Assembly (NCBI GenBank): GCA_007376385.1
Contig: VMGC01000004.1
Span: 71,207 to 135,206 of the forward strand
Direction: 5' to 3'
Source: Parcubacteria group bacterium Gr01-1014_8
GTDB lineage: Bacteria > Patescibacteriota > Minisyncoccia > Phycocordibacterales > UBA2100
DNA length: 64,000 nt
A program made the translations under genes and the position numbers. This document shows positions 1,918-54,964 of this stretch, in pieces (within the stretch, counting starts at the first letter, position 1; each line of letters opens with the position of its first letter). Below the pieces are notes generated by a model. That model did not search any database. It saw only the letters and a program-made list of their open reading frames with translations, and was not told where the DNA came from.

Positions 1918-4875
1918 ATGAAAAGTTACGATCATAAACGTATAGAACGAAAGTGGCAGGCACGCTGGAAGAAATCGAAGCTGTACAAGACTGCCGATAC
2001 GGTAAAAGGTAAGAAAAATTATTATTTGCTAACTGAATTTCCGTATCCGTCTGGCAATTTGCACGTCGGACACTGGTACGCTTTTTCTGTACCGGACATT
2101 TTAGCAAGAGCGCTCCGCATGCAAGGCAAGAATGTGATGTATCCGTTCGGCTTTGATGCATTCGGATTGCCTGCGGAAAACGCAGCCATAAAAAATAAGT
2201 TGAATCCTCGAAAATGGACCCTCGGCAACATCAAGTACATGAAAAAACAGATAACCTCGATGGGTGCATCGTTTGATTGGTCTCGAGAACTCGCTACGTG
2301 CGATCCTGAATACTACAAGTGGACGCAGTGGCAGTTTTTGCAATTTTTTAAGGCAGGACTCGCATATCGAAAAGAGACAGCAGTCAATTGGTGCCCTTCG
2401 TGCAAGACAGTGCTTGCGAACGAGCAGGTAGTGGATGGAAAATGCGAACGATGCGGAACGGAAGTGATTCAGAAGCAAATGCTTCAATGGAACTTAAAAA
2501 TCACCGACTATGCGGACCGTCTTATTGACGATTTGAGCACGCTGGATTGGCCTGAACAGATAAAGGAATCGCAGAAAAATTGGATAGGACGTTCTGAAGG
2601 CGCCGAGATAGATTTCAGGCTCACAGGAAATGTAGGCGATGACTCACGGTATCTGATCCTCCACGGCAGAGAAGGGAAGCCCACGAGCGTCTTTATTCCA
2701 TGGCTCAAAGAAGAACTGGAAAAAGCTGGACATGAAGTGGAAGTGCCACAGCTTCCCAACACGAATGAACCGAATGCATATGAACAGGCAGAATACATCC
2801 TCAAGAACTGCACCGTAGATGAAAAAACAGTTGTGATAGGCCACTCGATAGGAGGAGTTACAGCGCTGCGTCTCTTGGAGAAGGGCGCAAAGGTTAGGCG
2901 CGTTATATTGGTCGCGACACCGTACTCAGGAAGATTTTTGGATGGTAAGAAACGGCCGAGCGTCACAGATTCCGTGAAGAAGGGGTTCGATTTCGAGACG
3001 ATACGGAACAATACAAAGAGCATCATTGTTATGCCGGATGTAAAAGATGACAGAGTTCCATTTTCCGACGCCGAGAGCTATGCGCAGAAACTGGCCGGGA
3101 TGCTGGTCCATGGCAGGGGAGAGGAGAAGCATTTTATGGGTAAGATAGAGCCGGATGTATTGATGTGCCTTTGCCCCACTATCCGCGTTTTTACGACGCG
3201 AGCCGACACGCTTTTCGGGGCGACCTACATGGTCTTGTCCCCGGAACATCCATGGGTACGGTTAGCGATAGATGATGATCACAAAGTTTTAGAAAATAAG
3301 GATGAGGTAAAGGAATACGTCACAGCGGCGAATAAAAAAACTGAGCTGGAACGCCTCACGGAACAAAAAGAAAAGACCGGGGTGAGGCTGAAAGGCGTTG
3401 AGGGAGTAAACCCCGCTACGGGCGAGAAGATACCGATATTCGTAGCAGACTACGTGCTTGCGCACTACGGGACAGGGGCCATCATGGCGGTCCCGGCGCA
3501 CGATGAGCGCGACTTTGCATTTGCCAAGAAATTTGAGCTGCCGATACGAGATGTGATCTCTACTGGAAAGATGGAATCCGGCGTGTTCGCAGGAGAAGGA
3601 GTGTTGGTGAATTCCGGCGCGTTCAATGGGCTAAAAAGTATCGAGGCTAAGAGCACGCTCACCGATAAATTTGGCCGCAGTAAAATCACGTACAAACTCC
3701 GCGATTGGATAGTTTCGCGCCAGCGTTACTGGGGAGTTCCAATACCCATCGTCCACTGCGAAAGGTGTGGAGACGTCGCTATTCCTGATCCACAGCTTCC
3801 CGTTACATTGCCGGAAATCAAAGATTATTTGCCAACCGGAGACGGAAAATCGCCTCTCGCAAAAGCCAAAAAGTGGGTCAAAGTGAAATGTCCGCAGTGC
3901 AAAGGGACGGCAGAAAGAGAAACAGATACTCTCGATACGTTCGTCGATTCATCCTGGTACTTTTTGCGGTACGCGGACACAATAAACAAAAAAAAGTTTG
4001 CCGATATGAAAAAGATGGATGCATGGATGCCGGTAGATCTCTATTCCGGAGGAGCAGAACACACAACGATGCACCTCCTCTATTCTCGCTTCTGGCAGAA
4101 GGCGCTCTACGATCTAAAGCTCGTTAAGGACAGCGAGCCGTACACGCGAAGGATGAATCGTTCCATCATTCTTGGTCCAGACGGGCAAAAGATGTCGAAA
4201 TCCCGAGGCAACGTGATAGACCCGGATGCTGTTGTCGCGAAACTCGGCGCAGACACCGTGCGTATGTACCTTGCCTTCATAGGTCCGTATAATGAGGTTT
4301 CGAACTATCCGTGGAATCCGGATGGTGTGGTAGGTATTCGCCGTTTTCTCGAGCGTGTTTGGCGCCTCCGCGACCGACTTACGATATCGGTCAAGAAAAG
4401 TGACGGACATACGATATCGAACATCGAACGGATGCTGCATGTAACGATTAAAAAGGTGGGGGACGATATCACTGCCCTGAAATTCAATACTGCCATCGCG
4501 CAGATGATGTCGTTTATGAACGAAGCAGAGAGTAAAGGGATCACAAAGGCGCAATACGAGACACTGCTTCGGCTTCTTGCCCCGTTCGCTCCTCATATTG
4601 CAGACGAACTTTGGAGCATGATGGGACACAAGAAGTCGGTTCATATTGAAAAATGGCCCGCATTCGATCCGCATAAACTCGCGTCGTCGTCGTTTACAAT
4701 TGCGGTACAAGTGAATGGCAAGACACGAACTCAAATCACCATACCTGCTGCAGTGAAGGAAGACGCCGTGAAGGAACAGGCTGAAACAGCTGCAGGAAAA
4801 TGGTTGGAGGGAAAGGCTATAAAAAAGATCATCTACGTGCCCGGCCGCATCGTCAACATCGTCGCGGGCGAATAG
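1918..4875 (+). CDS. leuS: leucyl-tRNA synthetase with embedded alpha/beta-hydrolase domain
   Basis: HVGH (HIGH), CPSC...CERC zinc knuckle, NWIGRSEGAEIDF, TTRADTLFGATY editing threonine-rich motif, KMSKS; 985 aa with an extra ~184-aa insert (aa 238-421). Confidence 0.95.
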   Translation: MKSYDHKRIERKWQARWKKSKLYKTADTVKGKKNYYLLTEFPYPSGNLHVGHWYAFSVPDILARALRMQGKNVMYPFGFDAFGLPAENAAIKNKLNPRKWTLGNIKYMKKQITSMGASFDWSRELATCDPEYYKWTQWQFLQFFKAGLAYRKETAVNWCPSCKTVLANEQVVDGKCERCGTEVIQKQMLQWNLKITDYADRLIDDLSTLDWPEQIKESQKNWIGRSEGAEIDFRLTGNVGDDSRYLILHGREGKPTSVFIPWLKEELEKAGHEVEVPQLPNTNEPNAYEQAEYILKNCTVDEKTVVIGHSIGGVTALRLLEKGAKVRRVILVATPYSGRFLDGKKRPSVTDSVKKGFDFETIRNNTKSIIVMPDVKDDRVPFSDAESYAQKLAGMLVHGRGEEKHFMGKIEPDVLMCLCPTIRVFTTRADTLFGATYMVLSPEHPWVRLAIDDDHKVLENKDEVKEYVTAANKKTELERLTEQKEKTGVRLKGVEGVNPATGEKIPIFVADYVLAHYGTGAIMAVPAHDERDFAFAKKFELPIRDVISTGKMESGVFAGEGVLVNSGAFNGLKSIEAKSTLTDKFGRSKITYKLRDWIVSRQRYWGVPIPIVHCERCGDVAIPDPQLPVTLPEIKDYLPTGDGKSPLAKAKKWVKVKCPQCKGTAERETDTLDTFVDSSWYFLRYADTINKKKFADMKKMDAWMPVDLYSGGAEHTTMHLLYSRFWQKALYDLKLVKDSEPYTRRMNRSIILGPDGQKMSKSRGNVIDPDAVVAKLGADTVRMYLAFIGPYNEVSNYPWNPDGVVGIRRFLERVWRLRDRLTISVKKSDGHTISNIERMLHVTIKKVGDDITALKFNTAIAQMMSFMNEAESKGITKAQYETLLRLLAPFAPHIADELWSMMGHKKSVHIEKWPAFDPHKLASSSFTIAVQVNGKTRTQITIPAAVKEDAVKEQAETAAGKWLEGKAIKKIIYVPGRIVNIVAGE

Positions 4876-17818: not shown

Positions 17819-19327
17819 TCATCCGAGTGATTTTCGATACTTTGCCGCTGCAAGAGCATCGTCAGCGAATTCACTATTACCTTTCCAGAGATGGTAGATG
17901 TTCGATGTGTGGTTTCGATGCAGGAAATGCCGCTGCTTCTCCGGGCCAAGATCTTTTTCCACATACTCTTCAATGAGGGAAATATCTTCCGCGAGTACAT
18001 TAAATCGAGCATCTCCGCCCATAAGCAGTTCTAAGTTTTCCTTATTCAAAAACTTACCCGCGTGGACGAGGTCCTTTTTAAGATTTACATACAACCGCTC
18101 TAATAAGTTCATGATGCCCATCTCACGAGCGATCTTTAGCGCTCTTCCCGTAGCTATCAGCTCTGGCGGAATACCAAGGGAATAGAATGCGCCGGTGAAT
18201 TTAATGGCTCTCGGCAGTTGAATCCCGCCAACACCGCGTGAATATCCGAAGAGTCCGATGTGCTGCGCCCTCTCACGATGACTCGGCAGTGCAGACGCTA
18301 CATCGTTTATGACATCCGCAAGCGGCGTTATTGTGTCAGTAAAAAAACGAGCTGCCCGAGCATTGAACAGAGAGATTTTTTCGCTGTCCTTCTCGTTCAC
18401 TTTTTCATACCTGTCGATATTCTTAGGGATTTCTTTGTTGAGTTTTCGTATGGCTTTTTTCACGTCATCCAGCGGGTAATCCGAGCGAAAGGCTGATTGG
18501 ATCGTCAACGACTGGGCACCTGTATACTGCTCTATGGTTTCGTCAACATATTCCGGGTTTATCCCTCCTCTGAACGGTAAGCTGCCGCCGCCAACCCACG
18601 GATACATGCGTATACCTCGTTTTTCTCCTAGCTCATGTGAATCTGCAATAAGTTTCTTGACTGCGAGCACGGTCGGCAAAAGCCCCGCGTTCATTGCCGG
18701 ATCGGAGCGCGCTATAAAGACGCGAAAGTACTCTGGGACAAGAGCATGAGTGTCTCGCAGATAATCGAGATAATCACTCATGATGCGGGGAGCCTCTTCC
18801 ATGGTCTCAACGCTTTCAAATAGCGGTATAACGTCGAGAAATTTGAATTCGCTTGGCATATCAAAAATACTTTCTGCAGCTTCCGCTATTCTATGGAATC
18901 GCTCCTGCATCTGTTTGAGTTGCTCTGCAGAAGTCGTCATGGGCAAGATGAGTTCAAATATCGGAGGAATATGGAAACCGTATTGCCTCGCGGCATGTTC
19001 GGCCGCAAATACGTTGATAAGGCTCCGCGGAAGCCGGTGTGTTTTCTCGACCCAAACATTTGGAATGCGAAACGTGAGAAATATGTTCTTGCCAATTTGA
19101 TGTTTCTTGAAATAGTCAAAATAGTTTTGGTACAGCCGGTCAATAACCGCCTCATCAACCAACTTTCCTTCCCAATCCCACATGTACTCGTGCACTCCGA
19201 GCTCGGAAAAACATCGGTAGCATTCATCAATTTCCTCACTTGACGCAACAAACCGCTTCCCCGTAAAGGGTGACGGGCATGCGTTATCAGGATGCTGGGT
19301 GGCCATCGTGACGGGGATAGTGCGCAT
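17819..19327 (-). CDS. archaeal-type phosphoenolpyruvate carboxylase (PepcA/atPEPC family)
   Basis: N-terminal IPVTMATQHPDN (TQHPDN signature of atPEPC), ARSDPAMNAG and VGGGSLPFRGG (counterparts of the PEPC GYSDSxKDxG and GRGGxxGRGG motifs); ~500 aa. Confidence 0.72.
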   Translation of the reverse strand: MRTIPVTMATQHPDNACPSPFTGKRFVASSEEIDECYRCFSELGVHEYMWDWEGKLVDEAVIDRLYQNYFDYFKKHQIGKNIFLTFRIPNVWVEKTHRLPRSLINVFAAEHAARQYGFHIPPIFELILPMTTSAEQLKQMQERFHRIAEAAESIFDMPSEFKFLDVIPLFESVETMEEAPRIMSDYLDYLRDTHALVPEYFRVFIARSDPAMNAGLLPTVLAVKKLIADSHELGEKRGIRMYPWVGGGSLPFRGGINPEYVDETIEQYTGAQSLTIQSAFRSDYPLDDVKKAIRKLNKEIPKNIDRYEKVNEKDSEKISLFNARAARFFTDTITPLADVINDVASALPSHRERAQHIGLFGYSRGVGGIQLPRAIKFTGAFYSLGIPPELIATGRALKIAREMGIMNLLERLYVNLKKDLVHAGKFLNKENLELLMGGDARFNVLAEDISLIEEYVEKDLGPEKQRHFLHRNHTSNIYHLWKGNSEFADDALAAAKYRKSLG

Positions 19328-32809: not shown

Positions 32810-33626
32810 TTGTGCAAGTCAGACTTGCACAAACATGACATATTTATGAGCTGTCGTCAAAATCCATTGCCAAACGGACAAATTCATTGTCAAACGCATA
32901 CACACCATTTAATACGTCCTTTGCTGAATTTAAGAATTTCCGTTCGTCGGTTTCAACGACCTCATCAAGAGCGTCGTAGTCGAGTATCTGGGATCGCCGC
33001 GAGCCTAGAACGTCTATAAGGCTCGCGAATGGATATGCTCGTGCCTGCTGTAATGCCTCATCGTATTTCTGAAAAGCACTATCTAAGCCGCCGGGGAATC
33101 TCTCGAACGGATTTTTGACGGTAATGTATGCAAGTAAATATTGCAGATATTCATCATCATGGACGGTGCGAGCTTTGTACGAACTCTGAAACAGAGTTCC
33201 CTCTTCGCTGTACTTGGCGTTGAAATATGCTGCCATACTCGTGCATAGTCTCTGCATAAAAGCGCTGATACCATTTTCTACGTTCTCGCGTACGAGCAAA
33301 TGGAAGTGATTATCCATAAGACAGAACGCTAAGATTGACACGTATGGCTTTTGCTTTCGCCAATGTTCAGGACGTGAAAATCCGGCACGAATATTGTCTG
33401 GGCCGATATCGCGCTCCCAATTCCGCGGCGTGTTGTCGTCGTTTAGGTAACGTAGGAGTTTAAGAAATCGCCACCGGTCGTCATCGTCTCGGATTATGCT
33501 CATGCCGCGTGTACCTCTCTTCATTACATGCACGTACGAGCCGACGGAATACGGTTCTCTTCTCATACTTGACAGATTACATTATTCTTCTGCACTTGTG
33601 CAAGTCAGACTTGCACAACGCATGAC
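32810..33626 (-). mobile_element. IS200/IS605- or RAYT-like unit: HUH Y1 transposase gene bracketed by two direct copies of a 30-nt motif containing the perfect palindrome TTGTGCAAGTC-A-GACTTGCACAA
   Basis: Copies at 32810-32839 and 33596-33626 are near-identical; the only gene between them is the Y1 transposase homolog; the unit sits between grpE and dnaK. Confidence 0.65.
32844..33566 (-). CDS. IS200-like / REP-associated tyrosine transposase (HUH Y1 superfamily)
   Basis: YVHVMKRGTRGMSIIRDDDDRWRFLKLL, LMDNHFHLLV (HUH motif), YKARTVHDDEYLQYLLAYITVKNP (catalytic Tyr region). Confidence 0.75.
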   Translation of the reverse strand: MRREPYSVGSYVHVMKRGTRGMSIIRDDDDRWRFLKLLRYLNDDNTPRNWERDIGPDNIRAGFSRPEHWRKQKPYVSILAFCLMDNHFHLLVRENVENGISAFMQRLCTSMAAYFNAKYSEEGTLFQSSYKARTVHDDEYLQYLLAYITVKNPFERFPGGLDSAFQKYDEALQQARAYPFASLIDVLGSRRSQILDYDALDEVVETDERKFLNSAKDVLNGVYAFDNEFVRLAMDFDDSS

Positions 33627-47079: not shown

Positions 47080-47334
47080 CTAGATACGGGCTCCTTCACC
47101 CCTCAATAGAGCACGCTTACGTCTCTCTCCGCCGCGGTTATAATTGCCTAAGCTACCGTCAGAACGAACTACTCTGTGACACGGAATAGTCGGGTCATAG
47201 TTCGTCCGCATAATCGCGCCGACTCCTCGCGCCGCTTTGGAATTTCCCGCCTTTGTAGCAACCTGTTTATAGGTCATAGAACCCCCCTTTGGGATCGTGC
47301 GTACGATATCGAGGACTTTCTCACGAAACGTCAT
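47080..47334 (-). CDS. methylated-DNA-protein-cysteine methyltransferase, DNA-binding/catalytic domain only (start at MTFREKVL)
   Basis: IPCHRVV active-site motif (PCHR), preceding helix-turn-helix YKQVATKAGNSKAARGVGA. Confidence 0.8.
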   Translation of the reverse strand: MTFREKVLDIVRTIPKGGSMTYKQVATKAGNSKAARGVGAIMRTNYDPTIPCHRVVRSDGSLGNYNRGGERRKRALLRGEGARI

Positions 47335-47341
47335 GCACGCA

Positions 47342-47447
47342 TTATACCCCATGAGATAGATCTCAAGATATGCATTCTGAATCAAATCATTCGCAGACGG
47401 ATTTCTAAAACATCAAGTCAGAGAATGTATCTCACGGGGTTATATAC
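47342..47447. repeat. MITE/REP-like inverted-repeat unit (TTATACCCCATGAGATAGA ... GTATCTCACGGGGTTATATAC) between MGMT start and nuclease stop
   Basis: Arms read directly; right arm overlaps the stop codon of 47440..48237. Confidence 0.7.
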
Positions 47448-48237
47448 CCAGAGTACCCTGAACTTTCTTCGAGTTTTTGGGCGCAAATGCGAGCATTTTT
47501 TTGCCGACTGCTTCTCGATATCGGCAATAGTCGCACTCTTCTGATGCAGATGGCAACTCATCACGTTCCAGACACAATTTTATTTCTTTGAGCGTTCCTT
47601 CGACCCACGAATCGTCACCTTTATAAGGGACGAGAGTTACCTCGAACTCCAGCAGAGCATCAAATGCCTTTTTGTCCCTATCCGCGTTCGCATACACGAA
47701 GTACCCAGTGTCAGAGACCTTGAATCCGTTCTGCCTAAAGAGCCACTGGTATATTTCCATTTGCCGTTTGTATCCATCGTGCCACTCTTGGTCCAATTCT
47801 TTTATCGTTTCGTCTTTACTCGTCGCCTTGTAATCAACGATGATAAGTTCGCCCTTTGGATCTATCCATATGTCATCCACGCCGCCGCACACCATGAATC
47901 CTGTGCTGTGGCGATGGCAGATACCCCGCTTCAATGAGTCACGCCATTCATCTATGCGCGAGTCATCGAACGGAACCGCATCAACACCGTATTCTTTCAA
48001 GAGCGGATGCGTTGTCTTTTCTGTCCGATGAATATCGAATTCCTTTTTTAACAGCGCATCAACTGCACTATTCAGATTGAACGGAAAGCCCGGCGGACGA
48101 GCTGTCCCAAGCTTGTTATCAATATAAAAACACCTGGGGCACTCAAGAAAAAGCCCTATTTTCGAGCGAGAAAGACGGAACCTATCTCCGCCATAGTTCC
48201 AATTTGGATTTCTGTCTGGCTTGTAGTAGCCGCTCAT
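47440..48237 (-). CDS. RecB-family PD-(D/E)XK nuclease, Cas4-like (stand-alone)
   Basis: GGVDDIWIDPKGELIIVDYKATSK (RecB nuclease motifs II/III), N-terminal CPRC and C-terminal CDYC (possible Fe-S cysteines as in Cas4/AddB). Confidence 0.75.
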   Translation of the reverse strand: MSGYYKPDRNPNWNYGGDRFRLSRSKIGLFLECPRCFYIDNKLGTARPPGFPFNLNSAVDALLKKEFDIHRTEKTTHPLLKEYGVDAVPFDDSRIDEWRDSLKRGICHRHSTGFMVCGGVDDIWIDPKGELIIVDYKATSKDETIKELDQEWHDGYKRQMEIYQWLFRQNGFKVSDTGYFVYANADRDKKAFDALLEFEVTLVPYKGDDSWVEGTLKEIKLCLERDELPSASEECDYCRYREAVGKKMLAFAPKNSKKVQGTLGI

Positions 48238-48314: not shown

Positions 48315-48451
48315 CACCGCCTCTGTCTGGAACATCGCCTCTGATATTCAGGTTGGAGAATATCGGAGGCGATGCATTTTTTTGCGTCGACGGAGCCGAC
48401 TAACTTCCAGCAAGCCGACCCAGGTGCCCTCGTGTTAGCGAAGGATCGGCT

Positions 48452-48934
48452 TTACAAACTTCGCGAATCGCCTCGTTCTTTAACCTCGATGAACCAATGC
48501 TTGAATGTATTTTCCACGTACCACATGCCAAAAAAGATGGCGAGTGTCAGCAACGTCGAGAAAATAGCGATCTGATACATACCAAACGCGACTACGGCTC
48601 CTACAGCAGCCGCAACCCACAATCCCGCGGCAGTTGTTACGCCATGTAGCGAGTCGCCTTTGAAAATAATAAGCCCTGCACCAAGAAAACCTATGCCCTG
48701 CACCACGGAAGCTAAGACACGGGCCGGATCGAAATTAACCAATCCTATGAATTGCGAGTCAACTGACATACCAGTCAGCACGAAGAGGCACGAGCCGAGC
48801 GAGACTAATCCGAACGTGCGGCTGCCTGCCGCTTGATTTGCCATCAATGCCCGTTCAGTACCGACGATGACACCCAAGAAAGCTGCAAGCAACAACTTGA
48901 GCATCAGCGTGCTCGTCGGATCTACGAAATCCAT
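48452..48934 (-). CDS. MgtC/SapB-family membrane protein
   Basis: LLAAFLGVIVGTERALMANQAAGSRTFGLVSLGSCLF typical MgtC N-terminal region, 4-5 TM. Confidence 0.8.
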   Translation of the reverse strand: MDFVDPTSTLMLKLLLAAFLGVIVGTERALMANQAAGSRTFGLVSLGSCLFVLTGMSVDSQFIGLVNFDPARVLASVVQGIGFLGAGLIIFKGDSLHGVTTAAGLWVAAAVGAVVAFGMYQIAIFSTLLTLAIFFGMWYVENTFKHWFIEVKERGDSRSL

Positions 48935-48938
48935 AGGC

Positions 48939-49817
48939 TCATTTTAGAGTACTGTTACCGTGCGTCAAAACGGAAGTGGGTACATCCGACATGTCGGCCG
49001 TGCAGAGATTTCGCGCTTCATCAAGTACGGCAGGAATATGACTCGGCCTGATGCCAAATTCCTCCAATAAATGTCCGTTCTTTACGTCTTTGCAGAGCAC
49101 GATCTTGTTATCCATGAGCCGGCGCTTTTCACCTTCGGATAATGTCGTAAGGCACGTAAGCGGATGAACTTTTGCTTCCTCTATCATCGAAAGAAGCCCC
49201 TTCTCGTGCGGATAGTCCCACCCGATGAGCTTCAGATCCGAACATTGGGCGTATCGAATGGCATTGCGCGTAAATCGAGTATTCGTCACCAGCCAACCTT
49301 CGTCCACGCGCGAATGCGCTTCTGGAGACTTTGCGAGGTCCTCATATCGTGCATGCACGTAGAGCGCGTCTTTGATGTCAGTTCGCCCGCCCGGATCGTT
49401 ATGGAACTTCGCCTCGACCCCTATGCGCTTCCCGTCTTTTTCAGCAAGAACGTCCACCTCGTGAGGCGCGCATCGTCCGTTCAGAGCAACTCCAGTCCAC
49501 GTTCTCCAGCCATGAGCTTTCAGAACTTCCGCAAAGAATTGCTCGAAAGGAAACCCCGACGGTCCTAAAGCAAACAGTGCGCGTTTTATGGAATACCGTG
49601 CCGCAACAGCTGGAACATTTTGATGACGGAGCATGTCGAATGCATGCCGATATATCTCCTCTGTTGATGAACCGTCGCGTACTTCGCGAACGACGTGCTC
49701 GATGATGCGCTCCCTCGCATCCTTAGCGGCTCCAGCTCGTTGAAGGGATGAATCCAGCTTCGAACGCTCGAACAATTCACGCTCTCCATCCGCTTTTGTA
49801 ATAAATAACTTGGTCAT
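48939..49817 (-). CDS. ATP-cone domain fused to Mrr-like PD-(D/E)XK restriction-endonuclease domain (start at MTKLFITK)
   Basis: N-terminal ATP-cone (KLFITKADGERELFERSKLDSSLQRAG...); C-terminal HEVDVLAEKDGKRIGVEAKFHND (D...EAK nuclease motif). Confidence 0.7.
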   Translation of the reverse strand: MTKLFITKADGERELFERSKLDSSLQRAGAAKDARERIIEHVVREVRDGSSTEEIYRHAFDMLRHQNVPAVAARYSIKRALFALGPSGFPFEQFFAEVLKAHGWRTWTGVALNGRCAPHEVDVLAEKDGKRIGVEAKFHNDPGGRTDIKDALYVHARYEDLAKSPEAHSRVDEGWLVTNTRFTRNAIRYAQCSDLKLIGWDYPHEKGLLSMIEEAKVHPLTCLTTLSEGEKRRLMDNKIVLCKDVKNGHLLEEFGIRPSHIPAVLDEARNLCTADMSDVPTSVLTHGNSTLK

Positions 49818-49818
49818 G

Positions 49819-50220
49819 CTATTTCGTAAATTCCTCCAAGACTTGGATGTTAAGAGGCTTCCCGTCCAAGGTTGCGATAAAAGAAACACCAACGGAAGGC
49901 GCAAATACCACGGTCTCAAATTGCCGAACTGCCGACTCTTTTGAGCAATCGCGGTTTGGTTCTACCCACGTCTTGAAATCCACGAGATAGACAAATCTCG
50001 ATGGCTCTTGGATCGTGACGTGCAGCGTATGGCACTGAGATGGAACCATAAGCGCTCCTTTCAGATGATGTTGGCCTTGGCTTACATTTGAAAAGATCAT
50101 GAGCGGCTGTTCTACTTTTGTATACGTACTTAAGATGCTCCCAACGAACACAAATGTCGCGAACGCCACAAAGACGGATATTGTCGATATCCACAGGAGG
50201 CGCCACATCACCTCTGTCAT
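49819..50220 (-). CDS. hypothetical protein with N-terminal TM anchor
   Basis: ORF only. Confidence 0.35.
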   Translation of the reverse strand: MTEVMWRLLWISTISVFVAFATFVFVGSILSTYTKVEQPLMIFSNVSQGQHHLKGALMVPSQCHTLHVTIQEPSRFVYLVDFKTWVEPNRDCSKESAVRQFETVVFAPSVGVSFIATLDGKPLNIQVLEEFTK

Positions 50221-52414: not shown

Positions 52415-53884
52415 CTATTTCGGCAGATTCGAAGGCGGAGGGGCTTTGGTGAACGGTATTCTCTGGAGCCCTGGCGATTTGATGGCAGTCGTCGGCGGGT
52501 GGAAGAGCGACGCGATGCACTCAGCGCACATGATCATGCCGGGACTTATCCATGGAGCGTGAAAATAACTGCGTCTTCGGTACGCGTCAAGAAATCTTCT
52601 AATTGTCAGTATCCACCGAACTCCGTGAAAATCTTGCCACGGATAGTCGAAGTCTCCGTGCCATCGTTTCGGGCGCAGCCGATTCAAATACCACGAGTTG
52701 TACCCCTGCCAGAGCCATCGCATCGAGTTACGGTTCGGCGGGCTGTAGTCTTCGTACTTCGCAATGTAGGCAATTCGTATCCCAACCTCGAATAAACGCT
52801 TGCCCGCATGGCGCTCAATAGCTTGTATCTGCTCAGTCTGCTTCCACGTTCCCCTGGCACGAGCAGTTCGCTGTTCCTCTTCAGTCAGGTGCTTTCTGAA
52901 TGTTGCAGATTCGAATCGCAGTTCCTCAACAACAGCCTGCGCTGCAGCTTGAAAAGTTGTGCCGCCAATTTTGCCTATGTGTGCGCGAAATATGATCTGC
53001 GTCCACGCCTGTTCACTTTTCTTGAGATTGCTCATTCTCTCAACTATAAGAGCCAGTGGATCTGTTTTGTATTCTTCCTTTGGGTCCCTGTCCATTTCGA
53101 AGTCCAGGTAGGAGCGTATCGGATAAATACCCATGATGGGTGGCGCGCGGCCTGGAATATCATTGGCTACTCCCAAAGGATTGGGGTCCTTCTCTAAAAG
53201 CATTTGGTTAGCAAAGAGGTCTGTTACTTGAGGATCGAAGTGGAATTTCGTCGCATAATCCTCCACTTCTATCAACTCTATTTCCGGGTACTGCGCATAT
53301 ATGAATGTTTCGGTGCGGCTTCTGAATTTTTCCCAGCACCAAATGTAAAAGTGCACTTCTCCCTCGAAACCTGCTATCTCGAACGAATACCATGTTCGGA
53401 TACCGCCGTCCCAATAGCGGTCAATGAACGTTGTTTCTCCGTTTATATCCCAAAATCCAGCGAGGGCCGCCTCCATGGCTCTCGGCGATTTCACAACATT
53501 TGCCGGAAATTTCATCTCAAGCACAACAGTCTTTTGCTTACTTATGTTATATGCCCGGACATACCACACCCACGCTTTCCACATGCCGGTTATGAGCGCT
53601 GCAGGAAGCCCCAAAGGAGACAAAGCCAGCAGCCAGGAGGCGGAGATCTTTAGAAAGCTCGGCAGCATATACGAAGCAACCGAGGTGAGTATCACCAGAA
53701 ATACAAGGAGAAGACCTCCCCTTGAGACGCCAAATTCACCCATGAGATCTATGAATTCTTGAAAATATGTCGCATGGCCGCTATGGCCGCTGTGAGTGCC
53801 TCCTTTTCCTGTACTTAAGTCGGCAAGAACCTGAGCAACATCGCCGACGGGATCGAATCCGCCAGATTCTTTTTCTTCCGCCAT
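52415..53884 (-). CDS. large hypothetical membrane protein (N-terminal TM helices plus ~350-aa soluble domain)
   Basis: Long ORF; no recognisable motif. Confidence 0.5.
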   Translation of the reverse strand: MAEEKESGGFDPVGDVAQVLADLSTGKGGTHSGHSGHATYFQEFIDLMGEFGVSRGGLLLVFLVILTSVASYMLPSFLKISASWLLALSPLGLPAALITGMWKAWVWYVRAYNISKQKTVVLEMKFPANVVKSPRAMEAALAGFWDINGETTFIDRYWDGGIRTWYSFEIAGFEGEVHFYIWCWEKFRSRTETFIYAQYPEIELIEVEDYATKFHFDPQVTDLFANQMLLEKDPNPLGVANDIPGRAPPIMGIYPIRSYLDFEMDRDPKEEYKTDPLALIVERMSNLKKSEQAWTQIIFRAHIGKIGGTTFQAAAQAVVEELRFESATFRKHLTEEEQRTARARGTWKQTEQIQAIERHAGKRLFEVGIRIAYIAKYEDYSPPNRNSMRWLWQGYNSWYLNRLRPKRWHGDFDYPWQDFHGVRWILTIRRFLDAYRRRSYFHAPWISPGMIMCAECIASLFHPPTTAIKSPGLQRIPFTKAPPPSNLPK

Positions 53885-53944: not shown

Positions 53945-54964
53945 TTAATTCAGAGCGTATTTTCCGTCCGCCATGCGCGTGAACGAACCGTTCTGGAGAT
54001 TGACCATCACCGTCGCATCTTTTACATAGCGCTCGCGCTTTACGCGCTCCACTATCTCACTTCGCGTAAGCGGTCCTTCTCGTTCCAAAATATTGCGTAT
54101 CACCTCTCTGACGACCCCCGGCGCATAACCCCACTCCTTCAGAGCGTACAATCCGCGACCAACCAGTACGAACCGCTGGTCTTTGATGAGCTCATTGTGC
54201 GTAGTCGCCGGATGCGCATTGCGTCGGAACAGTTTTTCGATGCCGCTCGCTACTTCCGTAAAGTGCATCGGAGAGCCGTGGCGCTTCAGCGTCAAGTAGG
54301 CAAAGTCGCGTGTGTTTCGAATGCGGACGTGCGGCGATTCGGTGCGTCCCCATTCTCCGAGCGGATTTTTACTGATGCGCTTCGAAATCATGAGCCACCT
54401 CTCCATGTGGTCATTTGGTCTCGACTTTATGCCTTCTTCTTTTAGAAATTTCTCAAAAAGCGCCAAAAACTCATCTTGCGGGATAAGATTCTCAAGTTCG
54501 ACTGCCTCGTACAGTCTGATAAGTGCTCGTTCAATGGAATCGGAGAGACTTTCGTCCACATGCCACCTGGCGTGAAAATTGTTGTTCTCTCGCTCGTAAT
54601 TGAAATGATGCCCGACGGTGAGCAAAAATATGATGTGGTTCTTATCCGTCTCACTTTTTGGCACTTCCTTCAAGAGAACGTGTTCGGCAAGCACCCCGCC
54701 AAGTTCGTGGATTGCCCGCTTAAGGTCGTCAATTGCCTTAGTATGCGACGTATACGCCTCGGATCCCCGAATGCTTCCGAGTCCATGGCTCTCTATCTGG
54801 CGGATGCGCTCTCTGGTGATGCCGTATTCCTTGCCGATAGCATCCAACGTGCGCCTCTCTCCAGTATTCCCGAGCCCAAAACGGTGCGTCAGCACCTTAC
54901 GGGAACGGTCGGGAAGATTGGCCAAGAGATCCTTTGTTACTGCTTTTGGGGCGAAGGACAACAT
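53945..54964 (-). CDS. hypothetical protein with N-terminal sigma-70 region-4-like HTH
   Basis: RKVLTHRFGLGNTGERRTLDAIGKEYGITRERIRQIESHGL closely follows the sigma-70 region 4 pattern; remaining ~270 aa unknown. Confidence 0.5.
   Translation of the reverse strand: MLSFAPKAVTKDLLANLPDRSRKVLTHRFGLGNTGERRTLDAIGKEYGITRERIRQIESHGLGSIRGSEAYTSHTKAIDDLKRAIHELGGVLAEHVLLKEVPKSETDKNHIIFLLTVGHHFNYERENNNFHARWHVDESLSDSIERALIRLYEAVELENLIPQDEFLALFEKFLKEEGIKSRPNDHMERWLMISKRISKNPLGEWGRTESPHVRIRNTRDFAYLTLKRHGSPMHFTEVASGIEKLFRRNAHPATTHNELIKDQRFVLVGRGLYALKEWGYAPGVVREVIRNILEREGPLTRSEIVERVKRERYVKDATVMVNLQNGSFTRMADGKYALN

What the first reader, a model, noticed from the sequence alone, without database searches (positions are those of the whole stretch)
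48939..49817. ATP-cone nucleotide-sensor domain fused to an Mrr-type restriction-endonuclease fold
The N-terminal ~90 aa read as an ATP-cone, the allosteric ATP/dATP-binding module of NrdR and RNR. The C-terminal half has the HEVDV...GVEAKF (D...EAK) PD-(D/E)XK signature of Mrr-like nucleases. A nuclease gated by nucleotide-pool sensing next to a Cas4-like nuclease, MGMT and UDG looks like a defence or repair islet. The architecture is catalogued, but as far as I know it is functionally uncharacterised.
Basis: partly seen in the sequence, partly recalled or inferred. Interest (0 to 1): 0.5.

Follow-up and report, generated by a model that had tools for sequence, protein, structure and literature searches.

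The report
ATP-sensing nuclease, housekeeping not defence
The gene really does encode an ATP/dATP-sensor domain fused to an intact DNA/RNA-cutting domain, but it is an ordinary member of a very large, ancient and still uncharacterised family that sits among housekeeping genes, and in other lineages beside nucleotide-breakdown genes, not in a defence island.

Summary
The catalytic residues E92, D122, E135 and K137 are 99-100% conserved in 146 diverse relatives. The residues NrdR needs for adenine-nucleotide binding align to conserved positions.

The family is large. It occurs in at least 591 Patescibacteria species genomes, in Bacteroidota, on a Chlamydiota plasmid and in many Archaea. PDB 1Y88 (AF1548) is the nuclease plus C-terminal part of the same three-domain protein, crystallised without its ATP-cone.

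The "defence islet" reading is not supported:
- The gene lies in a vertically inherited syntenic block (MnmA, this gene, MgtC, Cas4-like, MGMT) on a core chromosome.
- It evolves no faster than MnmA.
- It matches no whole PADLOC defence-system model.
- It was not found on viral contigs.

Elsewhere it is co-operonic with a beta-CASP RNase-like gene, an AMP-phosphorylase-type gene, a PRPP-synthetase-like gene and universal stress proteins. [quoted passage not shown]

Best guess: an adenylate-gated nuclease for nucleic-acid turnover and salvage. This function is inferred, not shown.

The parts
48939..49817 (-). Whole gene: 292-aa ATP-cone / PD-(D/E)XK nuclease / AF1548-like C-domain protein. It is 100% identical to a protein named 'ATP-cone domain-containing protein' from Parcubacteria group bacterium Gr01-1014_8.
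49569..49817 (-). ATP-cone domain, aa 1-83. I6, K8, E14, F16 and K20 align to S. coelicolor NrdR V48, K50, E56, F58 and K62, which are required for or select adenine-nucleotide binding.
   Evidence: Pfam, 31.0 bits. After 1Y88, the family profile hits only the ATP-cones of NrdR, NrdD and NrdA in the PDB. Foldseek matches NrdR at probability 1.0. Residue roles are from PMC9110341.
49542..49568 (-). LGPSGFPFE motif, aa 84-92, the most conserved stretch of the family. G85 and F91 are 100% conserved, G88 and E92 99%. E92 starts nuclease helix alpha-1 and is inferred to be the first acidic residue of the active site. The 1Y88 crystal construct lacks this motif.
49224..49556 (-). PD-(D/E)XK nuclease domain (Mrr_cat), aa 88-198. 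Catalytic residues: D122 (49452-49454), E135 (49413-49415), K137 (49407-49409), plus E120 (49458-49460).
   Evidence: Pfam, 39.3 bits. 1Y88 at E=3.9e-31. D38/E51/K53 of AF1548 were predicted catalytic in PMC1821046. 100% conservation. Fold matches to the nuclease domains of NucS/EndoMS, MspJI and Can2/Card1.
49002..49223 (-). AF1548-like C-terminal helical domain, aa 199-272. In the archaeal orthologue it is weakly HhH-like.
   Evidence: Aligned to 1Y88 residues ~120-194. PF22357 scores 16.2 bits in the target (below its 23.9 cut-off) and 93.3 bits in P0396; HHH_5 scores 16.1 bits in P0396.
48939..49001 (-). Variable C-terminal tail (aa 273-292) and stop codon. It is not conserved and is absent in many homologues.
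48452..48934 (-). MgtC/SapB-family membrane protein (160 aa). It starts 4 nt after the target's stop, so it is the probable operon partner. It is present just downstream in 68 of 77 evaluable Paceibacteria loci.
49819..50220 (-). Upstream 133-aa predicted membrane protein with no significant family match. Its stop lies 1 nt before the target's ATG. It is detectable only in the closest relatives (26 of 55 loci).
48333..48374 (.). 17-bp hairpin in the 214-nt gap after MgtC. It may mark the end of the target-MgtC transcript, separating it from the Cas4-like/MGMT genes.
   Evidence: -38 kcal/mol, z = -3.9. No U-tract on the coding strand, so its function is uncertain.
47440..48237 (-). Context only: Cas4-like PDDEXK_1 nuclease. 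It is syntenic in 65 of 74 evaluable Paceibacteria loci, but no link to the target is seen outside this clade.
47080..47385 (-). Context only: MGMT C-terminal domain protein with the PCHR motif. Syntenic in 52 of 71 evaluable loci.

Best explanation
The gene encodes a catalytically competent endonuclease whose activity is set by adenine nucleotides. An N-terminal ATP-cone binds ATP/dATP or a related adenylate. As in ribonucleotide reductases and NrdR, binding changes the oligomeric state, which switches the attached AF1548-type PD-(D/E)XK nuclease on or off. The C-terminal helical domain holds the nucleic-acid backbone.

In this Paceibacteria genome the gene is a vertically inherited, single-copy, core-chromosome gene. 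It is probably co-transcribed with a MgtC-family membrane protein.

Its most likely cellular role is regulated breakdown of nucleic acid (RNA or DNA, not resolved) to supply nucleotides for salvage or catabolism when energy or nucleotide supply is low. It is not restriction or phage defence.

Shown: the architecture, intact catalytic and nucleotide-binding residues, phyletic breadth, synteny and gene neighbourhoods. Inferred: nucleotide gating, oligomer switching, the substrate and the physiological role.
For: Architecture and active sites:
- Pfam ATP-cone and Mrr_cat both score above their cut-offs.
- PDB 1Y88 matches at E=3.9e-31 and Foldseek gives 1Y88 at 1.5e-16.
- E92, E120, D122, E135 and K137 are kept in 145-146 of 146 representatives.
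- K8 (143/146), F16 (132), K20 (140), T52 (131) and Y75 (140) are kept. They align to the NrdR residues whose mutation abolishes nucleotide binding.

Ancient, conserved three-domain family:
- It occurs in Patescibacteria, Bacteroidota, on a Chlamydiota plasmid and in Archaeoglobi, Korarchaeota, Bathyarchaeia and DPANN archaea. The same invariant residues hold across these groups.

Core rather than accessory in Paceibacteria:
- The block MnmA, target, MgtC, Cas4-like, MGMT is kept in 80 loci.
- Median identity of the target is 68%, against 56% for MnmA in the same genomes.
- The window is housekeeping.
- No phage or viral copies were found.

Link to nucleotide catabolism in three independent lineages:
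- In Pontibacter and Criblamydia the gene heads a cluster: target, beta-CASP MBL nuclease, archaeal-type thymidine/AMP-phosphorylase family protein, ribose-phosphate diphosphokinase.
- In 78 further non-CPR (candidate phyla radiation) metagenome loci, a beta-CASP gene lies downstream on the same strand in 36 (31 of 53 evaluable). A TP-family gene is present in 14, a Prs-like gene in 10, universal stress proteins upstream in 23, and PFK, GAPDH and 2-hydroxyacid dehydrogenase in 11-13.
- In a Bathyarchaeia genome the gene overlaps the end of a bona fide AMP phosphorylase (TIGR03327, 617 bits against a 535 cut-off). That gene is preceded by ribose-1,5-bisphosphate isomerase (TIGR00511, 419 against 314).
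- The pentose-bisphosphate pathway built on these enzymes degrades nucleosides and nucleotides, and its genes occur in CPR bacteria (PMC12628685).
Against: - Within the Paceibacteria clade that contains this window, no beta-CASP, AMP-phosphorylase or Prs-like gene lies within 10 kb of the gene in any of 80 loci or in the 64-kb window. The catabolic link is therefore borrowed from other lineages.
- Archaeal contexts are heterogeneous: only 1 of 6 has AMP phosphorylase. Some Bacteroidota copies stand alone.
- PD-(D/E)XK domains with HhH-like partners usually act on DNA. The Paceibacteria neighbours Cas4-like and MGMT would fit DNA repair.
- The AlphaFold model gives no reliable inter-domain geometry (pTM 0.46; the last ATP-cone segment, aa 68-89, has pLDDT below 50). 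How the cone would gate the nuclease is unknown.
- Position 9 is Ala or Ser instead of the common Arg of KRDG, so the ligand may not be ATP/dATP.
- There is no experimental evidence for any member.
Confidence: 0.45

Rival explanations
1. DNA repair or recombination nuclease. A structure-specific endonuclease, like Hjc or NucS/EndoMS, works with the neighbouring Cas4-like nuclease, MGMT and sometimes UDG. The ATP-cone ties its activity to dNTP/ATP availability.
For: - The fold is closest, after AF1548, to the NucS/EndoMS nuclease domain. The archaeal orthologue has a weak Hjc match, and JGI labels some members 'Holliday junction resolvase'.
- Cas4-like and MGMT are syntenic in 65/74 and 52/71 evaluable Paceibacteria loci.
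- A Korarchaeota locus has a purine DNA glycosylase nearby, and one CPR locus has an AP endonuclease.
- The C-terminal domain is HhH-like.
Against: - The same synteny holds equally for non-repair genes (MnmA 72/73, YceG, a 489-aa unknown protein). It decays with divergence: Cas4-like 13/21 and MGMT 9/20 in the under-60%-identity group.
- Cas4-like, MGMT and UDG are absent from all 78 non-CPR loci.
- A strong hairpin and a 214-nt gap separate the target-MgtC pair from the Cas4-like gene.
- The Hjc and NucS similarities are at fold level only.
Confidence: 0.25
2. Anti-phage defence nuclease. This would be a Mrr-like type IV restriction or abortive-infection enzyme, unleashed when phage infection perturbs the ATP/dATP pool. 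That would make it analogous to the CARF/SAVED-nuclease effectors.
For: - The sensor-plus-PD-(D/E)XK layout resembles Can2, Card1 and Cdn1, whose nuclease domains are fold matches.
- There is a weak PADLOC hit to the ZorD Mrr-like nuclease domain (18.5 bits).
- Two copies are on plasmids.
- One archaeal copy sits next to an MjaI-type R-M pair on the opposite strand.
- NCBI often names members 'restriction endonuclease'.
Against: - The gene is core and syntenic, and evolves more slowly than MnmA across the Paceibacteria sampled.
- No methyltransferase or known defence gene is a conserved neighbour.
- No relative was found on 2.9 million viral contigs, and only partial nuclease-domain hits among 50,697 phage records.
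- It has the same three-domain form and invariant residues from Archaea to Bacteria, unlike fast-evolving, patchy defence genes.
- The plasmid copies sit in metabolic operons.
Confidence: 0.1
3. Non-catalytic, NrdR-like transcription regulator. The nuclease-fold and helical domains would only bind DNA, and the ATP-cone would make binding depend on nucleotide levels.
For: - The ATP-cone is most similar to that of NrdR.
- PD-(D/E)XK folds have been recruited as DNA-binding modules elsewhere (from general knowledge, not tested here).
Against: - All catalytic residues are kept in 145-146 of 146 representatives, which is not expected for a binding-only module.
- There is no zinc ribbon (TIGR00244 scores 18.7 against a 124.65 cut-off).
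- No ribonucleotide reductase gene appears among the annotated neighbours in any locus examined.
Confidence: 0.05

Closest known systems
AF1548 of Archaeoglobus fulgidus (PDB 1Y88, 'protein of unknown function')
   Same: It is homologous over the nuclease and C-terminal domains (E=3.9e-31 by phmmer, 1.2e-53 by family profile). It has the same D/E/K catalytic triad, predicted in PMC1821046. A 99%-identical full-length orthologue (P0396, 265 aa) has the same ATP-cone, LGPSGF.FE motif, nuclease and C-domain architecture.
   Different: It shares only 32-38% identity with the target. The crystallised construct starts after the conserved motif, so it lacks the ATP-cone and the E92 equivalent. No function has been determined.
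NrdR (ATP-cone transcriptional repressor of ribonucleotide reductase genes)
   Same: It has the same sensor domain, with nucleotide-binding positions conserved. It provides the precedent that an ATP-cone controls DNA-related activity through nucleotide-dependent oligomerisation (PMC9110341).
   Different: In NrdR the output domain is a zinc ribbon that binds specific boxes; here it is a catalytic nuclease. NrdR's cone sits at the C-terminus, here it is N-terminal. No link to RNR genes was seen.
CARF-nuclease effectors Can2, Card1 and Cdn1
   Same: They are a small-nucleotide sensor fused to a PD-(D/E)XK nuclease that acts as a dimer. Their nuclease domains are fold matches. They are a useful model for how ligand binding can align two active sites.
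   Different: Their sensor is a CARF domain that binds cyclic oligoadenylates made by type III CRISPR. They are defence effectors in CRISPR loci. Here the sensor is an ATP-cone and the context is housekeeping or metabolic.
Mrr (type IV modification-dependent restriction endonuclease)
   Same: The Pfam Mrr_cat catalytic domain scores above its cut-off.
   Different: No Mrr_N winged-helix modification reader is present, and the gene is not in a mobile or defence context. The family is much closer to AF1548 than to Mrr proper.
NucS/EndoMS and Hjc (archaeal repair and recombination PD-(D/E)XK nucleases)
   Same: They are the best fold matches after AF1548. They share the minimal alpha-beta-beta-beta-alpha-beta core, with an E...D...ExK active site.
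   Different: There is no significant sequence similarity. NucS has its own N-terminal DNA-binding domain and a PCNA motif, and neither protein has a nucleotide sensor.

Membership tests
ATP-cone domain (PF03477) | Match to the family HMM above the curated cut-off | tested here: met
   31.0 bits against 25.8, aa 5-79
ATP-cone domain (PF03477) | Beta-hairpin plus helical bundle fold, as in NrdR and RNR cones | tested here: met
   The AF2 model has two short strands then helices, with block-mean pLDDT mostly about 80-94 over aa 1-60. Foldseek matches NrdR 7p37, 9fvr and 9fxk at probability 1.0. After 1Y88, the family profile hits only the ATP-cones of NrdR, NrdD and NrdA in the PDB.
ATP-cone domain (PF03477) | Conserved inner-site nucleotide-binding residues (Lys of the K-x-x-G hairpin, Glu and Phe that read adenine, second Lys) | tested here: met
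   I6, K8, E14, F16 and K20 align to NrdR V48, K50, E56, F58 and K62. K8 is in 143/146, F16 in 132/146, K20 in 140/146 and E14 in 104/146. Position 9 is Ala or Ser, not Arg.
ATP-cone domain (PF03477) | Actual binding of ATP/dATP with an allosteric effect | not testable with these tools
   Needs ITC or a filter-binding assay and activity assays.
AF1548-like nucleases (PDB 1Y88; Mrr_cat + PF22357) | Sequence homology across the nuclease and C-terminal domains | tested here: met
   E=3.9e-31 over aa 94-270; Foldseek E=1.5e-16.
AF1548-like nucleases (PDB 1Y88; Mrr_cat + PF22357) | AF1548-like_C Pfam domain above its cut-off | tested here: inconclusive
   16.2 bits against 23.9 for the isolated C-terminal third. 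However, the region aligns residue by residue to 1Y88, and relatives score 28-93 bits.
AF1548-like nucleases (PDB 1Y88; Mrr_cat + PF22357) | PD-(D/E)XK catalytic residues present | tested here: met
   D122, E135 and K137 equal AF1548 D38, E51 and K53 and are 100% conserved.
Mrr type IV restriction endonuclease | Mrr_cat catalytic domain | tested here: met
   39.3 bits against 21.
Mrr type IV restriction endonuclease | N-terminal winged-helix (Mrr_N) domain that reads modified DNA | tested here: not met
   The N-terminus is an ATP-cone. No other Pfam family is listed even at E<=10.
Mrr type IV restriction endonuclease | Modification-dependent cleavage and restriction of foreign DNA | not testable with these tools
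   Needs an in-vivo restriction assay.
Known anti-phage defence systems (PADLOC-DB 2.0) | Match to a defence-protein model together with that system's partner genes | tested here: not met
   The only hits are a domain-level one to the nuclease end of ZorD (18.5 bits) and PDC-S02 (13.3 bits). The neighbours give only Cas4 hits, plus an MzaA hit that covers only part of a non-adjacent neighbour. No Zor, CRISPR or R-M partners are present.
NrdR | N-terminal zinc ribbon plus ATP-cone; equivalog model TIGR00244 | tested here: not met
   18.7 bits against a 124.65 cut-off; only the cone region matches.
   41.1 bits against a 65 cut-off. Pfam Cas_Cas4 scores 18 against 22.7, while PDDEXK_1 scores 50.4. 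No cas genes appear among the window ORFs annotated. It is 'Cas4-like' only.

The most novel reading that the evidence does not exclude
The AF1548/ATP-cone nucleases may be an ancient, cross-domain 'energy-charge switch' for nucleic-acid catabolism. When ATP, and with it chelated Mg2+, falls, the ATP-cone releases the nuclease. The nuclease then starts degradation of cellular RNA or DNA. A beta-CASP exonuclease and AMP phosphorylase pass the products into the pentose-bisphosphate pathway.

The recurrent pairing with Mg2+ and cation transport proteins would then reflect a shared ATP/Mg2+ homeostasis regulon. Those partners are MgtC in 68/77 Paceibacteria loci and in 8 non-CPR loci, CorA in Ferroglobus, P-type ATPases in 15 or more loci, and an F1Fo ATP synthase operon in another CPR lineage. 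This would be the first ATP-cone shown to control an enzyme outside deoxyribonucleotide synthesis.
Probability: 0.2. Interest if true: 0.7.

Novelty: new member of a known kind. Interest (0 to 1): 0.45.

Why it matters
The ATP-cone is known as the on/off switch of ribonucleotide reductases and of their repressor NrdR. Here the same switch is fused to an intact nuclease, in a family found from Archaeoglobus to candidate-phyla-radiation bacteria and Bacteroidota, and no member has been studied.

If the cone gates the nuclease, this would be a simple, widespread way of coupling nucleic-acid breakdown to cellular energy or nucleotide status. That is especially relevant for CPR bacteria, which are generally thought to depend on salvaged nucleotides.

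The work also corrects two likely misreadings:
- The database label 'restriction endonuclease' is probably wrong for this family.
- The only solved structure (1Y88) appears to be missing its regulatory domain and one conserved acidic residue (E92).

For this particular window, however, the gene is an ordinary member of the family in an ordinary housekeeping neighbourhood.

Tried and rejected
- **The listing of cluster members on ten distant representatives.** It gave no names or taxonomy. Taxonomy was instead obtained from plasmid tblastn and two further homologue searches.
- **phmmer of the isolated N-terminal 92 aa against the PDB.** It returned only spurious cullin-3 hits. The family profile was needed to reach the NrdR and RNR cones.
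- **Literature searches.** Searches for ATP-cone with restriction endonuclease, Mrr, nuclease plus defence, or AMP phosphorylase found nothing on this architecture. The P. aeruginosa metalloproteome hit was irrelevant. A search for the USP/phosphoketolase/thymidine-phosphorylase island found nothing usable.
- **Defence hypothesis.** It was tested with PADLOC, phage records and three viral-contig scans using family-signature peptides. It was rejected as the leading explanation.
- **'Unusually strong conservation implies an essential function'.** The 65-81% identity among top hits looked striking. However, neighbours in the same genomes are similar (Cas4-like 69%, MGMT 70%, sigma/HARE-HTH 68%), so it is merely a well-conserved core gene.
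- **A metal or Fe-S site from four cysteines.** Only C116 and C192 are near-invariant (141/146), while C242 and C272 are not. The tools return no model coordinates, so this was left open.
- **NrdR-like regulation of RNR genes.** No RNR gene was seen in any annotated neighbourhood.
- **Inter-domain geometry.** The AlphaFold model's value here is too low (pTM 0.46) to infer a gating mechanism.
Full report
**Observation.** The ORF list shows a minus-strand reading frame at 48939-49919. The ATG at 49817 lies one base after the stop of the upstream ORF (49819-50220), and all close homologues begin at the equivalent residue. Pfam places an ATP-cone at aa 5-79 (31.0 bits, cut-off 25.8) and a Mrr_cat nuclease domain at aa 88-198 (39.3 bits, cut-off 21). 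The quoted HEVDV and GVEAKF motifs are at aa 119-123 and 133-138. The protein is 100% identical to an 'ATP-cone domain-containing protein' of Parcubacteria group bacterium Gr01-1014_8.

**Anatomy.**
- A sequence search of the PDB gives one strong hit: AF1548 of Archaeoglobus fulgidus (1Y88, 'protein of unknown function'), E=3.9e-31.
- An AlphaFold model built on 35 homologues has confident domains but no reliable inter-domain packing (mean pLDDT 75, pTM 0.46).
- Foldseek against the PDB returns 1Y88 first (1.5e-16). Next come the nuclease domains of NucS/EndoMS, MspJI and the CARF effectors Cdn1, Can2 and Card1, and then the ATP-cone of NrdR at probability 1.0.
- The GOS paper predicted D38, E51 and K53 as the AF1548 catalytic residues (PMC1821046). 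These align to D122, E135 and K137 here.
- In 146 diverse full-length representatives (36-53% identical to the target), D122, E135 and K137 are in 146/146. E92 and E120 are in 145/146, H119 in 140/146, and R157, D160 and N179 in all.
- E92 ends the family's most conserved motif, LGPSGFPFE, and begins the first nuclease helix. I infer that it is the first acidic active-site residue, as in Hjc-type enzymes.

**ATP-cone.** The N-terminal domain alone finds nothing in the PDB by phmmer. A family profile, after 1Y88, hits only the ATP-cones of NrdR, class III RNR and E. coli NrdA. In that alignment I6, K8, E14, F16 and K20 match S. coelicolor NrdR V48, K50, E56, F58 and K62. Mutation of V48, K50, E56 or K62 impairs nucleotide binding, E56 hydrogen-bonds the adenine 6-amino group, and F58 excludes guanine (PMC9110341). 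K8, F16, K20, T52 and Y75 are kept in 131-143 of 146 representatives. The cone is therefore very probably a working adenine-nucleotide site. Position 9 is Ala or Ser rather than the Arg of the common KRDG, so the exact ligand is open.

**Family breadth.**
- The family has 4071 homologues with E<=1e-3 in the 90%-identity cluster database and 1201 clusters at 50% identity. The best 150 clusters are all full-length.
- Full-length homologues also occur on a Pontibacter plasmid (42% identity) and a Criblamydia plasmid (38%), widely in Bacteroidota, and in Archaeoglobi, Geoglobus, Ferroglobus, Korarchaeota, Bathyarchaeia, Aenigmarchaeota, Nanoarchaeota and Altiarchaeales.
- A protein 99% identical to the crystallised AF1548 fragment is 265 aa and carries a canonical KRDG ATP-cone and the LGPSGFGFE motif (P0396). 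The 1Y88 construct therefore began at an internal codon and lacks the regulatory domain and the E92 equivalent.
- The three-domain form is the norm, and the same residues are invariant from Archaea to Bacteria.

**Is it a defence or repair islet?**
However, an MgtC-family gene and a class-III aminotransferase are interleaved with them.
- In 80 Paceibacteria loci the whole block is syntenic: sigma-r4/HARE-HTH, a 489-aa unknown protein, YceG, MnmA, target, MgtC, Cas4-like, MGMT.
- Split by divergence, MnmA is the most persistent neighbour (22/22 in loci below 60% identity). MgtC follows (15/22), then Cas4-like (13/21) and MGMT (9/20). UDG is rare (8/63 overall) and the aminotransferase is unique to this genome. 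The repair genes are thus no more tightly linked than tRNA-modification and cell-wall genes. This is vertical synteny, not a functional islet.
- Median identity of the target (68%) exceeds that of MnmA (56%) and YceG (54%) in the same genomes.
- The rest of the window is core chromosome: LeuRS, CysRS, GluRS, a class II aminoacyl-tRNA synthetase (D/K/N type), AlaRS, CorA, MurG, MraY, DnaK/J, RpoA, S4, DnaB, RmuC.
- PADLOC gives only an 18.5-bit match to the nuclease end of ZorD.
- No full-length relative is in 50,697 phage records. None was found in 2.9 million viral contigs with three sets of family-signature peptides. Only 2 of 72,556 plasmids carry it.

**Operon structure in the window.** The upstream 133-aa membrane ORF, the target and MgtC are separated by 1 and 4 nt. 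After MgtC comes a 214-nt gap with a 17-bp hairpin (-38 kcal/mol, z=-3.9) before the Cas4-like gene. The target is probably co-transcribed with MgtC, not with the Cas4-like and MGMT genes. This is an inference: the hairpin has no U-tract on the coding strand.

**Contexts outside the clade.**
- On both plasmids the gene heads the same four-gene cluster: target, beta-CASP metallo-beta-lactamase nuclease (Beta-Casp plus RMMBL; closest NCBIfam models are the aCPSF1 and Cas14 RNases, below cut-off), a ~500-aa archaeal-type thymidine/AMP-phosphorylase family protein (TIGR02645 above cut-off; AMP_phos 480-506 bits against 535), and ribose-phosphate diphosphokinase.
- In 78 further non-CPR metagenome loci with the gene called, a beta-CASP gene lies downstream on the same strand in 36 (31 of 53 with at least 1.5 kb of downstream sequence). 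The TP-family gene is in 14 and the Prs-like gene in 10.
- In the same loci, universal stress proteins lie upstream in 23. Phosphofructokinase, type-II GAPDH and 2-hydroxyacid dehydrogenase are in 11-13. P-type cation ATPases are in 15 plus 12, and an MgtC+DUF4010 protein is in 8.
- In a Bathyarchaeia genome the gene overlaps the 3' end of a bona fide AMP phosphorylase (TIGR03327, 617 bits against 535). That gene is preceded by ribose-1,5-bisphosphate isomerase (TIGR00511, 419 against 314).
- These two enzymes define the archaeal pentose-bisphosphate pathway for nucleoside and nucleotide degradation, whose genes are also reported in CPR bacteria (PMC12628685).
- Other contexts are mixed:
  - CorA, target, DUF389 with overlapping stops and starts in Ferroglobus.
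  - MscS followed by the target in an Archaeoglobus-like contig.
  - The target upstream of the F1Fo ATP synthase operon in another CPR lineage.
  - HIT hydrolase, target, signal peptidase among housekeeping genes.
  - A universal stress protein followed by the target, next to P-type ATPases.
  - Stand-alone in Sporocytophaga.
  - Next to an opposite-strand MjaI R-M pair in one archaeon.
- None of the beta-CASP, TP or Prs genes lies within 10 kb in the 80 Paceibacteria loci or anywhere in the window.

**Interpretation.**
- Shown: an intact nuclease and an intact adenylate sensor, fused in a fixed order, are under strong purifying selection across two domains of life. In this genome the gene is core and syntenic.
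- Inferred: nucleotide binding gates the nuclease. By analogy with RNRs and NrdR this probably works through a change of oligomeric state, and PD-(D/E)XK enzymes need paired active sites.
- The only functional signal that recurs in independent lineages (Bacteroidota, Chlamydiota, Bathyarchaeia) is nucleotide catabolism and salvage, together with stress and energy-metabolism genes. A second recurring theme is Mg2+/cation transport.
- I therefore favour an adenylate-gated nuclease for nucleic-acid turnover and salvage (confidence 0.45). That role would suit CPR bacteria, which are generally held to depend on scavenged nucleotides (general knowledge, not tested here).
- A nucleotide-tuned DNA-repair nuclease is the main rival (0.25), defence is unlikely (0.10), and a non-catalytic regulator is very unlikely (0.05).
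- The substrate (RNA or DNA), the ligand and the direction of regulation are unknown.

**Comparison and novelty.** The protein is a member of the AF1548-like family and carries a genuine ATP-cone. It is not Mrr proper (no Mrr_N reader), not NrdR (no zinc ribbon), not a Cas4, and not part of any PADLOC system. It 'works like' a sensor-nuclease fusion such as Can2 or Card1, but with a housekeeping sensor. The architecture is already catalogued in Pfam and NCBI names, and half of it is in the PDB, so the window's gene is a new member of a known, uncharacterised kind. The new points are:
- its non-defence, core character;
- the cross-domain link to the AMP-phosphorylase pathway and to beta-CASP nucleases;
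- the recurrent Mg2+/cation-transport partners;
- the recognition that 1Y88 is a truncated protein.

Interest is moderate (0.45): the family deserves an experiment, but nothing about this particular locus is unusual.

Noticed in passing
PDB 1Y88 / P0396 (not in the window): The only solved structure of the family (AF1548) appears to come from an ORF annotated with an internal start. A 99%-identical 265-aa protein has an N-terminal KRDG ATP-cone and the LGPSGFGFE motif, both missing from the crystal construct.
   Followed up: yes
window 48333-48374: A 17-bp hairpin (-38 kcal/mol, z=-3.9) sits in the 214-nt gap between the MgtC stop and the Cas4-like start. It has an A-run before it and no U-run after it on the coding strand. 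It may be a transcript-end or stability element. Conservation in related loci was not checked.
   Followed up: partly
window 1918-4875 (+): The leucyl-tRNA synthetase (985 aa) carries an alpha/beta-hydrolase-like insertion (Pfam Ser_hydrolase, aa 245-398, 33 bits) between the catalytic core and the editing domain.
   Followed up: no
window 52415-53884 (-): A 489-aa protein has no Pfam or PADLOC match, yet it is syntenic upstream of the target in 56 of 60 evaluable Paceibacteria loci at only ~34-42% identity. It is a conserved unknown.
   Followed up: partly
window 53945-54964 (-): A protein with sigma-70 region 4 plus a HARE-HTH domain. Its PADLOC 'MzaA' hit covers only aa 14-67, the stretch Pfam assigns to sigma-70 region 4. 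It is syntenic in 52 of 56 evaluable loci.
   Followed up: partly
window 48452-48934 (-); also L087 and 7 other non-CPR loci, L172, L084: There is a recurrent pairing of the ATP-cone nuclease with Mg2+/cation transport proteins. MgtC lies immediately downstream in Paceibacteria, MgtC+DUF4010 in 8 non-CPR loci, CorA overlaps it in Ferroglobus, and P-type ATPases overlap or lie nearby in Flavobacterium, Pontibacter and Criblamydia. This is unexplained.
   Followed up: partly
L089 and 12-13 other non-CPR loci, position +1: An ORF of ~84 aa, whose one printed example (L089) ends in ...PPCCGGHQK, sits between the ATP-cone nuclease and the beta-CASP gene.
   Followed up: no
window 49470-49472 and 49242-49244 (C116, C192): Two cysteines are near-invariant across the family (141/146 each). 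C242 (105/146) and C272 (73/146) are less conserved. A possible metal site or disulfide could not be tested without model coordinates.
   Followed up: partly
window 32844-33566 (-): An IS200-like Y1 transposase lies between the DnaK and ribosomal-protein/RpoA regions. It is the only mobile-element gene among the ~40 window ORFs annotated.
   Followed up: no
window 17819-19327 (-): An archaeal-type PEP carboxylase (PEPcase_2, 430 bits) in this CPR genome. The same family lies near the ATP-cone nuclease in Ferroglobus (L172).
   Followed up: no
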